Origin: Thermoanaerobaculia bacterium
GTDB taxonomy: Bacteria; Acidobacteriota; Thermoanaerobaculia; Thermoanaerobaculales; Sulfomarinibacteraceae
DNA: 63,990 nt
Reading direction: 5' to 3'
Assembly: GCA_027067575.1 (NCBI GenBank)
Contig: JAMOVQ010000012.1
Location: 1 to 63,990 of the forward strand
Part shown: piece by piece, positions 51,270 through 55,913 of the stretch
Layout of the letters: each line of letters opens with the position of its first letter
Position numbering within the stretch: the first letter of the stretch is position 1
Notes under the pieces: model-generated
What the model was told of the DNA's origin: nothing
What the model saw: only the letters and a program-made list of their open reading frames with translations
The model's database searches: none
Made by a program: the position numbers and the translations under genes

Positions 51270-51303
51270 GGCTCCCCGCCCCCCGGCGGGGAGCCACCTT
51301 TTT
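51270..51303 (+). terminator. Intrinsic terminator
   Basis: GGCTCCCCGCC-CCCC-GGCGGGGAGCC 11-bp hairpin followed by ACCTTTTT. Confidence 0.8.
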
Positions 51304-51406
51304 CGGACGCTTCCCTCCGCGCATCTCCCCGTTGCGCGCCGACCACCGGACGGGCCGCGGGTGTCCGCGCTAGAATGGGGATGACCTTCCGAAGGGAACG
51401 AGGACG

Positions 51407-54400
51407 ATGATCCCGGGCCACCACACTGTCGCCGTGGCGGTCGCACTCGCCGCGGCCCTCGTCGTGCCGGCCTCCGGTTGCCGGCACCGGGAGGGGCCCG
51501 GCGCAGTCGTCGAACGTGTCGAGCCGGGCGGCGCTGCCTCGGAGGCCGGCATCCTCCCGGGGGACCGTCTCACCGCATGGTCCGGACCCAGCGGCCACGG
51601 CACGCTCCGGGACCCACTGGACCTGACCGCGGTGGAAGAGGAACAGGCCCCGCGTGGCCCCGTCACCATCACTCTCGTCCGGAACGGCCGTACGCGCCCC
51701 GTCGTCCTGCCCCGGGGGCTCTGGGGCCTCAACTGCCGGCCCGCCATGCCGCCGCGGTCGCTCGCGCGGTACCGGCACCTCCTCTCCGGTCCCGCGAACC
51801 CGGCAACCGCGGCCACGGCACTGGAGCGGCTCGCCGCGACCTCGGTGGAGGACGCCCGTCTCGCCGCATGGCTCCTCGCCAGGGCCGGGGAACGATGGGT
51901 CTGCGCCAGGGCGTTCGATGATGCGAGGCGGTGCTTCGCGATGGCGGAGGAGCGGCTCGGGAACCCATCGGGGGTGGCGGTCCTCCTCGAGCTCGAGGGC
52001 TCGGCGCTCATCGGGGCGGGCCACCCGCGGGACGCCGTGAAACCGCTCACCCGCGCGCTGGCCCTCCGGAGGCGCATCCTCCCGGACTCGCCCACCGTGG
52101 CGTGGACGGTGCATCAGCTCTCACGCACCAACCTCCGGGGGTTCGGCACGGAACTGGAGGAGGCCGAGGCGATCTATGCCTCACTCGGCCACCCGACAGT
52201 GGAACGGGCCGTGGTGCTCGCCGACCTGGCGATCCGCCACCATGTCGGGGACGATCTCGAGGCCGCCGAGGGCCTGTACCGGCAGGCCCTTGCCATCCTC
52301 GTGGAACTGGCCCCCCGTTCGAAACGGCGGGCGATGGTGCTCGGGAACCTCGGCCTGCTCCTCCAGAAACGGGGCGACTACGCCGAGGCGGCCCGCCTCG
52401 TCGAGGAGAGCCTCCACATCCACGAGAGGATCGACCCCGCCTCGCGGGAGGTGGTGTACGCGCTGAACGCGCTGGGGCTCGTCGCCAAGAGGACCGGCCG
52501 TTTTGGCCGGGCGGCCGTCTGGTACGAGCGGGCCCTCGAGGTCGCCCGACGCATCGGGCCCGACGGCGTCGAGGTGGCGGGCCTCCTGAACAACCTCGGG
52601 AACGCCGCCATGCGCCAGGGCGACCTCGACGGAGCCTGGCGCTGGCACAGGCAGGCGGCCCGGCTCCGCCACAGGCTCCACAAGGGTGGAGCCGAAGAGG
52701 CCTCCTCGCTCCACAACCTCGGACTCGTGGCCTCGAGGCGAGGGGAGGACGGAACGGCCCTCCGCTTCTTCGAGCGCGCCCTGGCGATCAAGCGCCGCGT
52801 GTGCCCCGGCACGCTGTCGGTCGCCAACACCCTGCTCGAGATCGCCACCGTCCGGTCCCGGCAGGGCGATCCGGAAGGAGCCCGCCTCGCGGCAGAAGAG
52901 GCGCTCCGGCTCCGACGGACCATCGTGCCCGGAAGCCTCGATGAGGCCGAGGCCCTCCTCGCGCTCGGGGATATCGACCTCGCCGCCGGAGAGGACACGG
53001 CCGCCGAGACACGGTGGAGCGAGGCCCTTACCGTGGCCGATCGCCACCGTTCGCGGCTGACGGCCGGTGCCGAGGATCATGCGAGGCTGGCCGGGGCGCT
53101 GGGCGGATCTGCCCGGCGGCTGGCCCGTCTCCTGGCCTCGGAAGGGCGAAACGTGGAGGCGTTCCGGCTCCTCGACGGATCGCGGGCGGCGACCCTCCGG
53201 GCGATCCTGGCGAGCCGGCCCGTCATCCACCGGGCACTCCCGGGCCCCACTGCGGCGAAGCTGGTTCGTCTGGAGATTGCCATCGACCGAATCCGCGGGC
53301 GTCTGGCCCGGAGCGGAACCGGCGCCGAAGCCGGGACGCTCCGGGAGATACAAGACCGGCTGACGGAGCTCGAGACCGAGCACCGGCGGCTGCTTGGGAC
53401 CGCGAGCCGGTCCGACCCGGGTCTGGCGGCTCTCCTCGATCCCGGGGTGCTGAACGAGGACCTCCTCGCAGAAGCGCTCTCCGGAGGAACGCTCCTCCTC
53501 GAATACTGCGTGACCGCTTCGGGAACGACACTGTTCGCGACGCGCAAGGGGGATGGTGGCGGGCTCCTCCTCGAGACCCGTGAGATCCCTGAAGGTGAGA
53601 CGGCGCTCGCGCGGAGGGTCGAGCTCGTGCGAGGGTTCCTTCGTTCCCCGGCTGCCACGTTGCCGATCGAACAGGCGCTCCGGATCCAGCTCGGAGCGCT
53701 CCACGATCTTCTGATCGGCCCGGCCTCGGAAGCCATCGGGGCGGCGGAACGAGTCGTGATCGTACCGGACGGCCCTCTGGAGGCCCTCCCGTTCGGGGCA
53801 CTGCTCGACCTCCAGCGGAACCGTTTCCTCGGAGCGTGGCGACCGATCACCGTTGCACCGTCGGGAGCGGTCTTCGCCGGCCTGGTCCGGAAGCGGGGAG
53901 CGGCCGGACGGTTCGGGAACGTTCTCGTGGTTGCCGTCCCGGATCCCGGCTCGGGCGCAAGGGGAAGCTCCCCGCCTCCCATCCCTTCGACCCATGTCGA
54001 GGCCGAACGGATCGCCGCCCGCTGGCCCGGCGCACTCCTGCTCGAGGGACCACGGGCCACGGTGGCCGCGTTCCTCCGGCACGCCCCCGAGGCCGGCCTG
54101 ATCCACATGGCCGTCCACGGCGAGCTCGACCGGTCGGAACCGTGGGAATCCGCCCTCCTACTGGCTCCGGGGGACGGGAGCGCAACGGGCCGCCTGACCG
54201 CTGGCGACGTAGCGATCCGTCTGCGAGCCCACGCCCGGGTCGTCGTCCTCTCGTCGTGCAGCACCGCGGGGGGTGCCGTCCCCGGGGATCCGGGGATCAC
54301 CGGCCTCGCGCGGGCGTTTCAGCTCGCAGGGGCGCATACGGTCGTCGCCGCGCTCTGGCCCGTCCCCGACCGTTCGACCACTGCACTGATGACCCGCCTC

Positions 54401-54547
54401 CACACCGGGCTGGCCTCGGGCCTTCCCACTGCGGACGCCCTCCGGCAGGCACGGCACGAGCTCCTGCACACTGCCGGGGCCGGGAGGCACGACCTCCGTC
54501 ATCCGGCCCACTGGGCCGCGTTCCGGGTGATTGGCGACTGGTGGTGA
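51407..54547 (+). CDS. PDZ + TPR + CHAT (caspase-like) protein, probably exported/lipoprotein
   Basis: Hydrophobic N-terminus ending ASGC; PDZ motif VEPGGAASEAGILPGD; TPRs (LGNLGLL, LNALGLV, LNNLGNA, LHNLGLV); CHAT IVPDGPLEALPFGAL, HMAVHG, VLSSCST, VVAALWPVPD, HWAAF. Confidence 0.9.
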   Translation: MIPGHHTVAVAVALAAALVVPASGCRHREGPGAVVERVEPGGAASEAGILPGDRLTAWSGPSGHGTLRDPLDLTAVEEEQAPRGPVTITLVRNGRTRPVVLPRGLWGLNCRPAMPPRSLARYRHLLSGPANPATAATALERLAATSVEDARLAAWLLARAGERWVCARAFDDARRCFAMAEERLGNPSGVAVLLELEGSALIGAGHPRDAVKPLTRALALRRRILPDSPTVAWTVHQLSRTNLRGFGTELEEAEAIYASLGHPTVERAVVLADLAIRHHVGDDLEAAEGLYRQALAILVELAPRSKRRAMVLGNLGLLLQKRGDYAEAARLVEESLHIHERIDPASREVVYALNALGLVAKRTGRFGRAAVWYERALEVARRIGPDGVEVAGLLNNLGNAAMRQGDLDGAWRWHRQAARLRHRLHKGGAEEASSLHNLGLVASRRGEDGTALRFFERALAIKRRVCPGTLSVANTLLEIATVRSRQGDPEGARLAAEEALRLRRTIVPGSLDEAEALLALGDIDLAAGEDTAAETRWSEALTVADRHRSRLTAGAEDHARLAGALGGSARRLARLLASEGRNVEAFRLLDGSRAATLRAILASRPVIHRALPGPTAAKLVRLEIAIDRIRGRLARSGTGAEAGTLREIQDRLTELETEHRRLLGTASRSDPGLAALLDPGVLNEDLLAEALSGGTLLLEYCVTASGTTLFATRKGDGGGLLLETREIPEGETALARRVELVRGFLRSPAATLPIEQALRIQLGALHDLLIGPASEAIGAAERVVIVPDGPLEALPFGALLDLQRNRFLGAWRPITVAPSGAVFAGLVRKRGAAGRFGNVLVVAVPDPGSGARGSSPPPIPSTHVEAERIAARWPGALLLEGPRATVAAFLRHAPEAGLIHMAVHGELDRSEPWESALLLAPGDGSATGRLTAGDVAIRLRAHARVVVLSSCSTAGGAVPGDPGITGLARAFQLAGAHTVVAALWPVPDRSTTALMTRLHTGLASGLPTADALRQARHELLHTAGAGRHDLRHPAHWAAFRVIGDWW

Positions 54548-54550
54548 TCC

Positions 54551-55222
54551 TCAACCCGGACCGCTCCTGGCGGTTTCACCTCCCGCCACGGTGAACGTCG
54601 CGATCCGCGACAGGAGCGGCCGACCCGCCGGCGACAGCCTCGCCTCGACGCGCCAGTGGTACGTCCCGCCACGGAACAAGAGGCCTGGGGGCACGGAGAC
54701 CGGCGGACCCTCGACCTCCGGACTGCGCCAGAGCGTCGCCCCCCCGGCGTCGAGTAGCTCCACCACGTAACCCCGTGCGTCAGGAACCGTGGTCCAGTCG
54801 AACGGGGGAGGCGGACCCGTGACGTCGCCCACCGGTCGGAGGAGCTGCGGAGCCGCTGGCGCCACCTCGCGGACCACCGGCGCCTTCCCCTCCCGTCCCG
54901 GACGAACGAGGAGCACGGCGGTCACCGCGAGCACGACGCCGGCGGCCAGCGCAAAGAGACGGACCGGTCGAAGAGCCGGGCGACGGCCCCCGCCCCGGAC
55001 CGGGGCATCCGGGTCGAAACGGGGCGCCTCCCGGGCGAGCTGGAGAAGGGCCCGATGCACCACGGAACACGACGGACAGCGGATCGCGTGCTCCACGAGA
55101 CGCCGTTCCTGTTCCGGAGCGAGCTCGCCCGTGGCGAACGCCTCCCACTCGGCCTCGGTGGGATGCGCTTCCTCGGGCGGCCACGCCCGGTACGCCCGGC
55201 CCAGCTCGTCCGGATCACGCAT
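54551..55222 (-). CDS. ZAS-type (zf-HC2) anti-sigma factor with one TM helix and an extracytoplasmic Ig-like domain
   Basis: HAIRCPSC (HxxxCxxC), TM segment LFALAAGVVLAVTAVLLV, beta-rich C-terminus (YHWRVEA); overlaps the ECF stop. Confidence 0.8.
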   Translation of the reverse strand: MRDPDELGRAYRAWPPEEAHPTEAEWEAFATGELAPEQERRLVEHAIRCPSCSVVHRALLQLAREAPRFDPDAPVRGGGRRPALRPVRLFALAAGVVLAVTAVLLVRPGREGKAPVVREVAPAAPQLLRPVGDVTGPPPPFDWTTVPDARGYVVELLDAGGATLWRSPEVEGPPVSVPPGLLFRGGTYHWRVEARLSPAGRPLLSRIATFTVAGGETARSGPG

Positions 55223-55742
55223 GGATCCCCCGTCGCGCGAGCTCTTTCCGGAGGTCGGCCATCCCCCGGGAGATCAGGTTCCGCGCCCTGTGGTAGCTCC
55301 ACCCGAACATTTCCATCACCTCCCGGACGTCGTACCCCGCCAGGTGCGCCCGGACCGCACGGGCCCGGTCAGGGGAGAGCGTCTCGATCGAGCCGGCGAT
55401 CTGCCGTCCCAGCTCGCGCGAGAACGCGCGCGCCTCCGGGTCCGGGTCCATCGCCGCCCGCTCGCCGACGGCGTCCATCGCCGTCTCCTGCTCCCGGCGC
55501 ACCCTTCGCAAGAGGCGCACGGTCTCCCGCACCGCCGTCCTGTAGATGTAGGAGGCGGGATGCCCCGGGGTTCGCTCATTGCCAAGGGCCTTCCAGAGCG
55601 AAAGAAAGACCTCCTGCTCCGCGTCCTCGGCGACCAGCGCACTCTCCGGGCCCGCCACCCGTCCCACCGCCGAGCGGACGAGCCGTGCGTACCGCTGGAC
55701 CAGCGCCTCGAACCGGCCGTTCCCTTCCGTTCGTGATGCCAC
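55215..55742 (-). CDS. ECF (sigma-70 family) RNA polymerase sigma factor
   Basis: Region 2 AEDAEQEVFLSLW, YIYRTAVRE; region 4 LSPDRARAV..GYDVREV. Confidence 0.88.
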   Translation of the reverse strand: MASRTEGNGRFEALVQRYARLVRSAVGRVAGPESALVAEDAEQEVFLSLWKALGNERTPGHPASYIYRTAVRETVRLLRRVRREQETAMDAVGERAAMDPDPEARAFSRELGRQIAGSIETLSPDRARAVRAHLAGYDVREVMEMFGWSYHRARNLISRGMADLRKELARRGIHA

Positions 55743-55788
55743 TGCCAGGAGTATACGACGGCGTCCACGGGCACGTCCCGGGAGAGCC

Positions 55789-55827: not shown

Positions 55828-55913
55828 GCCGGAGTGGCGGAATGGCAGACGCAGGGGACTCAAAATCCCCCGAGGGTCACCTCGTGCGGGTTCGACTCCC
55901 GCCTCCGGCACCA
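55828..55913 (+). tRNA. tRNA-Leu(CAA)
   Basis: GCCGGAG/CTCCGGC acceptor stem, TGGCAGAC D-loop, GGGGA-CTCAAAA-TCCCC anticodon arm, long variable arm, GGTTCGACTCC, encoded CCA. Confidence 0.95.

What the first reader, a model, noticed from the sequence alone, without database searches (positions are those of the whole stretch)
51407..55742. Exported PDZ-TPR-CHAT caspase-like protease paired with an ECF sigma and ZAS anti-sigma
Seen: an intact CHAT His/Cys dyad (HMAVHG, VLSSC), a TPR array, an N-terminal PDZ and a lipoprotein-like signal (ASGC). The gene converges, 3 nt apart, on an ECF sigma plus a HxxxCxxC/TM/Ig-like anti-sigma. Established: ECF anti-sigmas are released by regulated proteolysis with PDZ-gated site-1 proteases (DegS), and TPR-CHAT proteases release a sigma factor in the Csx29/Csx30/CASP-sigma system. 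Inference: a CRISPR-independent trans-envelope signalling module in which a periplasmic caspase-like protease cleaves the anti-sigma ectodomain. Sigma/anti-sigma/CHAT neighbourhoods occur in other bacteria, but I know of no mechanistic characterisation of this exported PDZ form.
Basis: partly seen in the sequence, partly recalled or inferred. Interest (0 to 1): 0.65.

Follow-up and report, generated by a model that had tools for sequence, protein, structure and literature searches.

The report
Split sigma/anti-sigma/exported caspase-like protease module
An acidobacterial genome carries a conserved three-gene switch (a stress-type sigma factor, its membrane-bound inhibitor and a separately exported caspase-like protease) that looks like a "split" form of the recently solved Myxococcus DdvA anti-sigma factor; the protease probably frees the sigma factor by cutting the inhibitor outside the cytoplasm, which is untested.

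Summary
Window 51407-54547(+) encodes a 1046-aa signal-peptide/Cys, PDZ-like, TPR, CHAT protein with an intact His/Cys dyad. It converges, 3 nt apart, on a ZAS (HxxxCxxC)/TM/FN3-like anti-sigma gene (54551-55222, -) that overlaps an ECF sigma gene (55215-55742, -) by 8 nt.

The window comes from a Thermoanaerobaculia (Acidobacteriota) MAG. The trio is a real module:
- All 7 sigma orthologues found in other genomes keep the same arrangement.
- 17 of 19 informative anti-sigma homologue loci in the class have a TPR-CHAT gene within 7 kb, in convergent, co-directional or divergent order, with unrelated flanking genes.
- The association extends across the phylum and into a Gemmatimonadales MAG.
- All 41 N-terminally complete CHAT homologues have a signal-like N-terminus.
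- The dyad is kept in 19 of 19 trio CHATs.

The best PDB fold match of the AF2 model is DdvA, the Myxococcus anti-sigma with a fused periplasmic TPR-CHAT. Fused ZAS-TM-TPR-CHAT genes also exist in the same class.

One juxtamembrane Arg of the anti-sigma (R118) is invariant in 24 homologues, which makes it a candidate cleavage site.

Verdict: a split variant of the DdvS/DdvA kind. Functional linkage is well supported. The site-1 protease role is inferred, and cleavage, signal and regulon are untested.

The parts
51270..51295 (+). Intrinsic-terminator-like hairpin ending the upstream gene, so the CHAT gene needs its own promoter
   Evidence: 11-bp stem with 10 G-C pairs, followed by a T-run
51371..51376 (+). 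TAGAAT -10-like box (GCGCTAGAAT) about 31 nt upstream of the CHAT start codon. Orthologues have GCGCTATAGT and GCGCTACAAT in the same place
   Evidence: sequence reading; not picked up by the consensus scan
51407..54547 (+). Gene for the exported PDZ-TPR-CHAT caspase-like cysteine protease (1046 aa, P0001)
   Evidence: AF2 model pLDDT 88, pTM 0.81; top PDB fold hits are DdvA 8rw5 and 8rot_A
51407..51481 (+). Signal peptide with lipobox-like ASG|C (residues 1-25; hydrophobic core 7-21, Cys25)
   Evidence: The Cys is conserved in 6 of 6 close orthologues. The strict PROSITE lipobox is not met here (Pro at -4).
51494..51742 (+). PDZ-like domain (residues ~30-112)
   Evidence: Pfam PDZ_6 E 2.6e-4, sub-threshold; the family profile hits DegP/DegQ/DegS/RseP PDZ domains; AF2 pLDDT above 90 with a b-a-b-b-a-b-b-b topology
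51752..53476 (+). TPR / helical-repeat scaffold (residues ~116-690)
53594..54544 (+). CHAT (clan CD caspase-like) domain. Catalytic His904 is at 54116-54118 and Cys951 at 54257-54259
   Evidence: Pfam PF12770 E 2.7e-57; invariant H900/H904/C951
54551..55222 (-). Gene for the single-pass ZAS-type anti-sigma factor (223 aa, P0002). It converges on the CHAT gene with a 3-nt gap
55067..55090 (-). Zinc-binding anti-sigma motif H45-x3-C49-x2-C52
   Evidence: invariant in 24 homologues
54908..54967 (-). Transmembrane helix (residues 86-105)
   Evidence: AF2 helix 86-105
54869..54904 (-). Disordered juxtamembrane periplasmic linker (residues 107-118) ending in the invariant Arg118 (codon 54869-54871), the candidate site-1 cleavage position
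   Evidence: pLDDT below 50 for residues 107-118. R118 is 100% conserved in 24 homologues and is the only invariant residue outside the Zn motif and the beta-sandwich core.
54578..54865 (-). Periplasmic FN3/Ig-like beta-sandwich domain (residues 120-215)
   Evidence: AF2 pLDDT of at least 90; Foldseek hits CopC, FN3 and PKD domains; profile hits the FN3 domains of C5a peptidase
55215..55742 (-). ECF sigma factor gene (175 aa, P0003), overlapping the anti-sigma start by 8 nt
   Evidence: TIGR02937 1e-16, Sigma70_r2 3.4e-12; 51-57% identical orthologues
55750..55755 (-). TATACT -10-like box 7 nt upstream of the GTG start of the sigma gene (probably a leaderless or very short-leader mRNA)
   Evidence: a TAnnnT box 6-18 nt before the start codon in 11 of 16 orthologous loci

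Best explanation
The three genes form one trans-envelope signalling module, a 'split' counterpart of the Myxococcus DdvS/DdvA switch.

Shown or well supported:
- The ECF sigma factor is encoded with, and translationally coupled to, a single-pass ZAS anti-sigma. The anti-sigma's N-terminal Zn-motif helices face the cytoplasm, and its C-terminal FN3-like domain faces the periplasm on a disordered linker.
- The convergent gene encodes an exported, probably lipid-anchored, PDZ-TPR-CHAT protein with an intact clan-CD His/Cys dyad.
- The three genes travel together across Acidobacteriota.

Inferred:
1. In the resting state the anti-sigma holds the sigma factor at the membrane, and its folded ectodomain keeps the RseP-type site-2 protease away.
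2. A periplasmic protein or peptide signal is read by the PDZ and/or TPR parts of the CHAT protein and switches on the caspase-like domain.
3. The CHAT domain cuts the anti-sigma in its juxtamembrane linker, most likely next to the invariant Arg118, and so acts as a dedicated site-1 protease.
4. The genome's RseP homologue then cuts within the membrane, cytoplasmic proteases remove the ZAS fragment, and the sigma factor is released to transcribe an as yet unknown regulon.
For: Domain content and integrity.

Export:
- N-terminal hydrophobic signal in 41 of 41 N-terminally complete homologues; 14 have a strict lipobox.
- Conserved Cys in 6 of 6 close orthologues.

Linkage:
- 7 of 7 sigma orthologues from other genera keep sigma > anti-sigma > < CHAT.
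- 17 of 19 informative anti-sigma homologue loci in the class have a TPR-CHAT gene within 7 kb, in three different gene orders.
- 13 of 28 phylum-level loci have a CHAT catalytic domain within only 1.5 kb, and 7 more have a TPR hit.
- The same trio occurs in a Gemmatimonadales MAG.
- Flanking genes are not conserved.

Rosetta stone: ZAS-TM-TPR-CHAT single proteins exist in the same class and in Myxococcus, where DdvA is the top PDB fold match (8rw5 E 1.7e-16; 8rot_A over 1019 columns).

Candidate substrate site: R118 is invariant in 24 homologues and sits at the end of a disordered linker. Clan CD enzymes such as separase and metacaspases cut after Arg (established knowledge).

Site-2 protease: a Peptidase_M50 gene is present at G000:C39:29684-30922, E 5.7e-62.

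Precedent: DdvA's TPR-CHAT is proposed to clip its own linker before RseP acts, and removing it exposes DdvA to RseP (PMC11506125).
Against: - No cleavage, binding or expression data exist, and AlphaFold-multimer could not be run.
- Even for DdvA, CHAT-mediated cleavage is only proposed, not demonstrated (PMC11506125).
- R118 lies at the boundary of the folded domain and could be structural rather than a P1 residue.
- The window protein's n-region has no Lys or Arg, and its lipobox is non-canonical.
- The convergent orientation means the CHAT gene is not co-transcribed with the sigma/anti-sigma pair here.
- No shared ECF-type promoter motif was seen upstream of either transcription unit.
- Many PDZ-TPR-CHAT paralogues have no sigma neighbour and pair with other transducers, so the protease family is not intrinsically anti-sigma specific.
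- The sigma factor shows no detectable sequence affinity to DdvS.
Confidence: 0.5

Rival explanations
1. The CHAT protein is a partner, sensor or shield rather than the site-1 protease. It binds the anti-sigma's FN3-like domain, in the way RseB binds RseA or the bulky TPR-CHAT of DdvA blocks RseP. Its protease activity is directed at something else, such as an incoming or misfolded envelope protein. A different protease (HtrA/DegS-, Prc- or signal-peptidase-type) makes the site-1 cut once the CHAT protein lets go.
For: In DdvA the TPR-CHAT demonstrably blocks RseP, whereas its catalytic role is unproven (PMC11506125). TPR and PDZ are binding modules. The conserved FN3-like ectodomain (W143, W165, P178 and W190 invariant) looks like a docking domain. 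Paralogues pair with CHASE2 cyclases and kinases, where cleavage of the partner is less obvious.
Against: The His/Cys dyad is retained in 19 of 19 sigma-linked CHATs, so catalysis is under selection. The invariant linker Arg has no obvious role in a pure docking model.
Confidence: 0.27
2. The CHAT protease is an output of the system rather than an input: an envelope quality-control or remodelling protease whose gene stays next to its regulator because the ECF sigma controls it.
For: ECF regulons often include adjacent genes. In five class loci and in L113 the CHAT gene is co-directional with, and downstream of, the sigma/anti-sigma pair, as in an autoregulated operon.
Against: In the window and most orthologues the CHAT gene is convergent with its own -10-like box. 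No shared ECF-type -35/-10 motif was seen. Natural fusions of ZAS-TM to TPR-CHAT (DdvA) argue for physical co-operation on the input side. An output role alone also leaves the invariant juxtamembrane Arg unexplained.
Confidence: 0.15
3. The adjacency is fortuitous or merely inherited local synteny, with no functional link.
For: CHAT-TPR genes are abundant in this family (up to 42 matches in one genome). Most class-level examples are related MAGs.
Against: The adjacency persists in three gene orders and with non-conserved flanks, across several families of the class, in other classes of the phylum and in a Gemmatimonadales MAG. Fused forms also exist.
Confidence: 0.03

Closest known systems
[quoted passage not shown]
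   Same: An ECF sigma is held by an N-terminal Zn-motif anti-sigma domain, followed by a single TM helix and a flexible juxtamembrane linker. A periplasmic TPR-CHAT carries a His/Cys dyad. The proposed mechanism is the same: a CHAT-mediated site-1 cut followed by RseP. DdvA is the best PDB fold match of the window's CHAT protein.
   Different: Here the TPR-CHAT is a separate, independently exported (lipoprotein-like) polypeptide with an extra N-terminal PDZ-like domain, and the anti-sigma instead carries a small FN3-like ectodomain. No sequence-level homology to DdvA or DdvS was detected. No defence island or CRISPR lies nearby. The host is an acidobacterium, not a myxobacterium.
RseA/DegS/RseP regulated intramembrane proteolysis of sigma-E (E. 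coli)
   Same: A PDZ-bearing periplasmic protease is proposed to make the site-1 cut in a single-pass anti-sigma, followed by an M50 site-2 protease. An RseP homologue is present in this genome.
   Different: The protease is a clan-CD cysteine (CHAT) enzyme with a TPR scaffold, not an HtrA serine protease. It is encoded next to its presumed substrate. The anti-sigma is ZAS-type with an FN3-like ectodomain.
Type III-E craspase: Cas7-11 / Csx29 (TPR-CHAT) / Csx30 / CASP-sigma (PMC10028731)
   Same: A TPR-CHAT protease whose cleavage of an inhibitor releases an ECF-like sigma factor. There is fold similarity (8eey_B E 1.2e-14, 7y84_C).
   Different: Craspase is cytoplasmic, RNA-guided and CRISPR-encoded. 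The protein here is exported, has a PDZ domain, and has no Cas7-11, Csx30 or Csx31 partner.
Separase/securin (eukaryotic clan CD, C50)
   Same: A helical-repeat scaffold plus a caspase-like domain. There is weak sequence similarity around the catalytic Cys and fold similarity (9hn0_B E 4.8e-15). Separase cuts after Arg, which motivates the R118 idea.
   Different: Unrelated biological context; the resemblance is one of fold and chemistry only.

Membership tests
CHAT domain / clan CD caspase-like peptidase (PF12770) | Full-length match to the CHAT profile above the curated cut-off | tested here: met
   E 2.7e-57, 194.9 bits against a cut-off of 24, covering 4-289 of the 289-position profile
CHAT domain / clan CD caspase-like peptidase (PF12770) | Catalytic His (H-G/A/S) and Cys dyad | tested here: met
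   H904-G905 and C951 are invariant in 44 homologues and retained in 19 of 19 sigma-linked genes
CHAT domain / clan CD caspase-like peptidase (PF12770) | Proteolytic activity | not testable with these tools
   Needs an enzyme assay
ECF sigma factor (sigma-70 group 4) | Sigma-2 and sigma-4 regions only; match to TIGR02937 above its cut-off | tested here: met
   TIGR02937 61 bits against a cut-off of 42.9; Sigma70_r2 3.4e-12; 175 aa
ECF sigma factor (sigma-70 group 4) | Assignment to a numbered ECF group (Casas-Pastor 2021) | not testable with these tools
   No ECF-group HMMs were available. The main text of PMC7826278 does not mention CHAT, and its supplements are not held.
ZAS-type class I anti-sigma factor | N-terminal HxxxCxxC zinc motif within a helical anti-sigma domain | tested here: met
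   H45, C49 and C52 are invariant in 24 homologues; AF2 helices at 4-69. Pfam zf-HC2 is only E 0.0036, below its cut-off.
ZAS-type class I anti-sigma factor | Gene adjacent to, and coupled with, an ECF sigma gene; single TM helix | tested here: met
   8-nt overlap with the sigma gene; TM helix at 86-105
DdvS/DdvA-type system (anti-sigma with periplasmic TPR-CHAT) | TPR-CHAT is the covalent periplasmic domain of the anti-sigma | tested here: not met
   The TPR-CHAT is a separate convergent gene with its own signal peptide. Fused forms exist elsewhere in the class.
DdvS/DdvA-type system (anti-sigma with periplasmic TPR-CHAT) | Structural similarity of the TPR-CHAT to DdvA | tested here: met
   Foldseek top hits are 8rw5 (E 1.7e-16) and 8rot_A (E 2.6e-15, TMq 0.41, TMt 0.47)
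DdvS/DdvA-type system (anti-sigma with periplasmic TPR-CHAT) | Sequence homology of the sigma and anti-sigma to DdvS and DdvA | tested here: not met
   No DdvS or DdvA chain appears among the PDB sequence hits of the sigma, anti-sigma or CHAT-domain queries
DdvS/DdvA-type system (anti-sigma with periplasmic TPR-CHAT) | Controls an adjacent CBASS/CRISPR defence island | tested here: not met
   Neighbours are acyl-CoA dehydrogenase, HIT, ArsR and mechanosensitive-channel-type genes. Flanks are not conserved among orthologues. Only Pfam was used on the neighbours; no PADLOC scan was run.
PDZ domain | Match to PDZ profiles and a PDZ fold | tested here: inconclusive
   Single-sequence Pfam hits are sub-threshold (PDZ_6 21.1 bits against 27). 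The family profile hits PDZ-containing proteins in the PDB, including DegP, DegQ, DegS and RseP. AF2 gives a confident small beta/alpha domain. No fold search of the isolated domain was possible.
Bacterial lipoprotein (SPII signal) | Lipobox matching PROSITE PS51257 with Cys at +1 | tested here: inconclusive
   The window sequence VPASG|C fails the strict pattern (Pro at -4), and its n-region lacks Lys and Arg. Fourteen homologues pass strictly, and the Cys is conserved in 6 of 6 close orthologues. No SignalP or LipoP was available.
Type III-E craspase (Csx29) | Association with Cas7-11 and Csx30/Csx31; cytoplasmic location | tested here: not met
   No CRISPR or cas genes lie among the neighbours, and the protein carries an export signal
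DegS-type site-1 protease | Trypsin-like serine protease domain plus a C-terminal PDZ | tested here: not met
   No Trypsin or Peptidase_S1 hit. The PDZ-like domain is N-terminal and the catalytic domain is CHAT.

The most novel reading that the evidence does not exclude
Acidobacteriota, and at least some Gemmatimonadota, may use a large and so far undescribed class of exported, lipid-anchored PDZ-TPR-CHAT caspase-like proteases as dedicated, signal-gated site-1 proteases of ZAS anti-sigma factors, cutting at an invariant juxtamembrane Arg. More generally, these proteases would be interchangeable periplasmic input modules that plug into different transmembrane transducers: FN3-type anti-sigmas, CHASE2 adenylate/guanylate cyclases and Ser/Thr kinases. 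DdvA would then be the fused special case of a much wider 'periplasmic caspase signalling' principle.
Probability: 0.35. Interest if true: 0.78.

Novelty: new variant of a known kind. Interest (0 to 1): 0.6.

Why it matters
How ECF anti-sigma factors sense signals, and which protease makes the first cut, is known for only a handful of systems.

The only characterised link between a periplasmic TPR-CHAT and an anti-sigma is DdvA, for which neither the signal nor the cleavage has been demonstrated. One reason is that protease and substrate are a single polypeptide.

A naturally split version separates enzyme (the CHAT lipoprotein) from presumed substrate (a 223-aa anti-sigma with a short linker and one invariant Arg). 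The site-1 hypothesis therefore becomes directly testable in vitro and by simple genetics.

The finding also shows three further things:
- Exported caspase-like proteases are a common feature of acidobacterial envelopes.
- DdvA-type fusions are not confined to Myxococcota.
- The same protease family is wired to cyclases and kinases, which hints at a general proteolytic input layer for bacterial transmembrane signalling.

Tried and rejected
- **Shared ECF promoter.** I looked for a shared ECF-type promoter (-35 GGAAC-like, -10 CGTC-like) upstream of the sigma and CHAT genes in the window and its orthologues. Only sigma-A-like TAnnnT boxes close to the start codons were seen, so neither autoregulation nor regulon membership could be supported.
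- **ECF group.** Assignment failed: no group HMMs were available, the main text of Casas-Pastor 2021 does not mention CHAT, and its supplements are not held.
- **PDB sequence searches.** The full CHAT family profile was swamped by TPR proteins. The CHAT domain alone gave only marginal separase hits at E around 0.03. Only the fold search recovered DdvA.
- **Anti-sigma C-terminal tail as a PDZ ligand.** The tail (S-A-S-R/H-P in many orthologues) is not conserved in the window protein (ARSGPG) or in remote homologues, so this was not adopted.
- **Conserved neighbours as regulon hints.** None were found apart from a HIT gene shared with one close relative.
- **Complex prediction.** AlphaFold-multimer or a fusion construct for CHAT with the anti-sigma could not be run with the available tool.
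- **Chance adjacency.** Rejected on the basis.

Full report
**What is there.**

The window has about 70% G+C and is contig C12 of a 3.08-Mb MAG. Its relatives in public genomes are titled Thermoanaerobaculia / Acidobacteriota MAGs.

(i) The CHAT gene, 51407-54547(+), encodes 1046 aa.
- Pfam gives CHAT at residues 762-1044 (E 2.7e-57, full-length model), strong TPR_12 and TPR_10 hits, and weak PDZ hits at 30-97.
- An intrinsic terminator (51270-51295) precedes the gene. There is also a TAGAAT box, and a GAGGA Shine-Dalgarno sequence sits just before the ATG.

(ii) The anti-sigma gene, 54551-55222(-), encodes 223 aa, with H45-x3-C49-x2-C52 and a hydrophobic helix.

(iii) The sigma gene, 55215-55742(-), encodes a 175-aa ECF sigma (TIGR02937 1e-16). 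It overlaps the anti-sigma start by 8 nt.

The CHAT and anti-sigma stop codons are separated by 3 nt, and no terminator fits between them. Codon-position GC supports all three frames. The neighbours are unrelated housekeeping-type genes: acyl-CoA dehydrogenase, HIT, ArsR, a mechanosensitive-channel-like protein and an LPG-synthase-like protein.

**Structure.**

The AF2 model of the CHAT protein, built from a 44-sequence alignment, is confident (pLDDT 88, pTM 0.81). It shows:
- an N-terminal helix at 7-17, which is the signal peptide;
- a disordered tether at 19-27;
- a compact beta/alpha domain at 33-112;
- a helical-repeat scaffold at 116-690;
- a small beta subdomain at 695-727;
- the CHAT alpha/beta domain running to the C-terminus.

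Foldseek against the PDB ranks the Myxococcus anti-sigma DdvA first (8rw5, E 1.7e-16; 8rot_A, E 2.6e-15, 1019 aligned columns, TMq 0.41, TMt 0.47). Human separase and the craspase protease Csx29 follow.

A profile of 23 homologous N-terminal domains finds PDZ-containing proteins in the PDB, such as DegP, DegQ, DegS, RseP and Scribble. The PDZ call is therefore reasonable, although single-sequence Pfam scores are below threshold.

The anti-sigma model (pLDDT 81) has cytoplasmic helices at 4-69, a TM helix at 86-105, a disordered linker at 107-118 and a confident beta-sandwich at 120-215. The sandwich resembles FN3, CopC and PKD domains.

**Export.**

The window protein starts MIPGHHTVAVAVALAAALVVPASG|C. 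No alternative upstream start exists. The strict PROSITE lipobox is missed because of Pro at -4, and the n-region has no Lys or Arg.

The family evidence is much stronger:
- All six full-length close orthologues have an n-region, a hydrophobic core and a Cys 8-14 residues before the PDZ-like domain.
- Among 44 homologues, 14 carry a strict lipobox.
- Most of the rest have signal-peptidase-I-like A-x-A sites or looser lipoboxes.
- The only three without any hydrophobic N-terminus are N-terminally truncated gene calls that begin inside the PDZ-like domain.

An extracytoplasmic location is therefore well supported. Lipidation of this particular protein is likely but not proven.

**Is the trio a unit?**

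Searching genome contigs with the sigma alignment gave seven orthologues in other genera, 51-57% identical. All seven have sigma > anti-sigma > < CHAT in the same tight convergent arrangement. In some of them the stop codons of the converging genes even overlap by 20 nt.

I then searched a profile of the anti-sigma, the most system-specific part, in 301 genomes of the class and fetched 20 loci. Of 19 informative loci, 17 have both an ECF sigma and a TPR-CHAT gene within 7 kb. The order is mostly convergent, but co-directional in five and divergent in one.

In 401 genomes across the phylum, 28 loci with anti-sigma matches were fetched with only 1.5-kb flanks. Thirteen show an adjacent CHAT catalytic domain and seven more show an adjacent TPR segment.

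Metagenomic homologues show the same pattern: L048 and L115 are convergent and L051 is co-directional. A Gemmatimonadales MAG has sigma > zf-HC2 protein > TPR-CHAT in one direction.

Flanking genes are not conserved. Adjacency that survives inversion and changes of neighbourhood argues strongly for functional coupling rather than inherited synteny.

**Rosetta stone.**

Some anti-sigma profile hits fell in ORFs of about 1100 aa. These are zf-HC2 / TM / TPR / CHAT single polypeptides, the DdvA architecture. Each is preceded by a 4-nt-overlapping, divergent sigma-like gene of about 290 aa. The two halves that are separate in the window therefore occur fused in the same bacterial class, as they do in Myxococcus.

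**Catalysis and a candidate substrate site.**

H900, H904 and C951 are invariant in 44 homologues, and the dyad is retained in all 19 sigma-linked CHAT genes examined. The protease function is therefore under selection.

In an alignment of 24 anti-sigma homologues, some only about 30% identical, just eight columns are 100% invariant:
- the Zn motif, H45, C49 and C52;
- four beta-sandwich core residues, W143, W165, P178 and W190;
- R118.

R118 sits in a hydrophobic-x-R-small motif. It is the last residue of the otherwise variable, gapped and low-pLDDT juxtamembrane linker.

Clan CD peptidases are defined by their P1 specificity, and several cut after Arg, including separase, metacaspases/orthocaspases and gingipain R (established knowledge). 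R118 is therefore a natural candidate for the P1 of a site-1 cut. This is inference; the residue could equally cap the first strand of the domain.

The genome encodes an RseP-type M50 protease for the second cut.

**Comparison with the literature.**

Full-text searches link TPR-CHAT, anti-sigma and periplasm only in the DdvA/DdvS papers.

Those papers report that DdvA's roughly 900-residue periplasmic domain is a separase/craspase-like TPR-CHAT whose active site faces the linker of the partner protomer. Deleting the TPR-CHAT exposes DdvA to RseP. The authors propose, but could not show, signal-induced autoproteolysis as the site-1 step. They state that DdvA-like anti-sigmas are confined to Myxococcota plus one Comamonas (PMC11506125).

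The module here differs in five ways:
- It is split into two polypeptides.
- It adds an N-terminal PDZ-like domain and a lipoprotein-type signal to the protease.
- It gives the anti-sigma an FN3-like ectodomain.
- It shows no detectable sequence homology to DdvS or DdvA.
- It lacks an adjacent defence island.

It is therefore not a member of the DdvA family in the strict sense. It is an architectural variant of the same principle.

There is no serine-protease domain, no CRISPR context, and the compartment is the opposite one.

**Earlier notes of this scan.**

Earlier notes in other genomes reach the same 'split DdvA' reading. I treated them as leads only.

**What remains open.**

The signal, the regulon, the actual cleavage, the membrane to which the lipoprotein is sorted, and the ECF group are all unknown.

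I found no ECF-type promoter shared by the two transcription units. Instead, the sigma genes have a TAnnnT box only 6-18 nt upstream of the start codon in 11 of 16 loci. That suggests leaderless, constitutively transcribed mRNAs, which would fit post-translational control.

Many PDZ-TPR-CHAT paralogues lack sigma neighbours. They sit instead with an unassigned exported protein plus a CHASE2 adenylate/guanylate cyclase, with Pkinase-CHASE2, or with an ECF sigma plus a Ser/Thr kinase. This broadens the picture to a family of periplasmic proteases associated with several kinds of transmembrane transducer. It also cautions that cleavage of the partner is not the only possible logic.

**Verdict.**

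- Functional linkage of the three genes is very likely (about 0.85-0.9).
- The specific mechanism, CHAT as the site-1 protease of the anti-sigma, is the best-supported reading but unproven (about 0.5).
- The main rival is a non-cleaving sensor or shield role (about 0.27).
- This is a new variant of a known kind, of moderate to high interest. It offers an experimentally tractable, naturally split version of a mechanism that is still hypothetical for DdvA, and it appears to be widespread in a poorly studied phylum.

Noticed in passing
window 55828-55913 (+): A tRNA-Leu(CAA) gene lies in the 178-nt gap between the sigma gene and the upstream HIT-family gene, on the opposite strand. The HIT gene is therefore not in the sigma operon.
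   Followed up: partly
window 55750-55755 (-); L041-L057 sigma upstream regions: The sigma genes of the trio have a TAnnnT (-10-like) box only 6-18 nt before the start codon in 11 of 16 loci, which suggests leaderless or very short-leader mRNAs from a housekeeping-type promoter.
   Followed up: partly
L104-L112 (G191, G246, G180, G160, G214, G100, G062, G106, G195; same class): Single ~1100-aa proteins with zf-HC2, a TM helix, TPR and CHAT (the DdvA architecture). In the seven loci examined, a 4-nt-overlapping ~290-aa divergent sigma-like gene lies upstream (sub-threshold Sigma70_r2/r4 hits in the four scanned). This is a wider distribution than the Myxococcota plus one Comamonas stated in PMC11506125. 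A conserved juxtamembrane motif, R-x3-4-[GP]-R-[LI]-[ST]-G-G-F, follows the TM helix.
   Followed up: partly
L025 3195-10036, L027 180-6531, L030 3639-9925: PDZ-TPR-CHAT paralogues form co-directional operons with a ~310-340-aa exported protein that has no Pfam match and a CHASE2 adenylate/guanylate cyclase. The middle protein in L025 shares an Ig-like segment with the anti-sigma ectodomain.
   Followed up: partly
L049/L050 3226-9023; L114 1638-7654: Other TPR-CHAT homologues are coupled to a Pkinase-CHASE2 protein by a 4-nt overlap, or to an ECF sigma plus a Ser/Thr kinase with DUF4384. These are alternative transducers paired with the same protease family.
   Followed up: no
L113 2348-11162 (Gemmatimonadales MAG): Sigma > zf-HC2 protein > TPR-CHAT is followed directly by two giant RCC1/Big_2 repeat surface proteins, a possible regulon hint in another phylum.
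   Followed up: no
G000:C111:4461-7070 (L039): The window's own genome has a second TPR-CHAT gene, 31% identical, with no sigma or anti-sigma hit on its 8.2-kb contig.
   Followed up: partly
anti-sigma C-termini in L042, L043, L052, L053, L057, L048, L056: Many orthologous anti-sigmas end in S-A-S-[RH]-P or A-N-[HR]-P. This short conserved tail could be a ligand for the PDZ-like domain, but it is absent from the window protein.
   Followed up: partly
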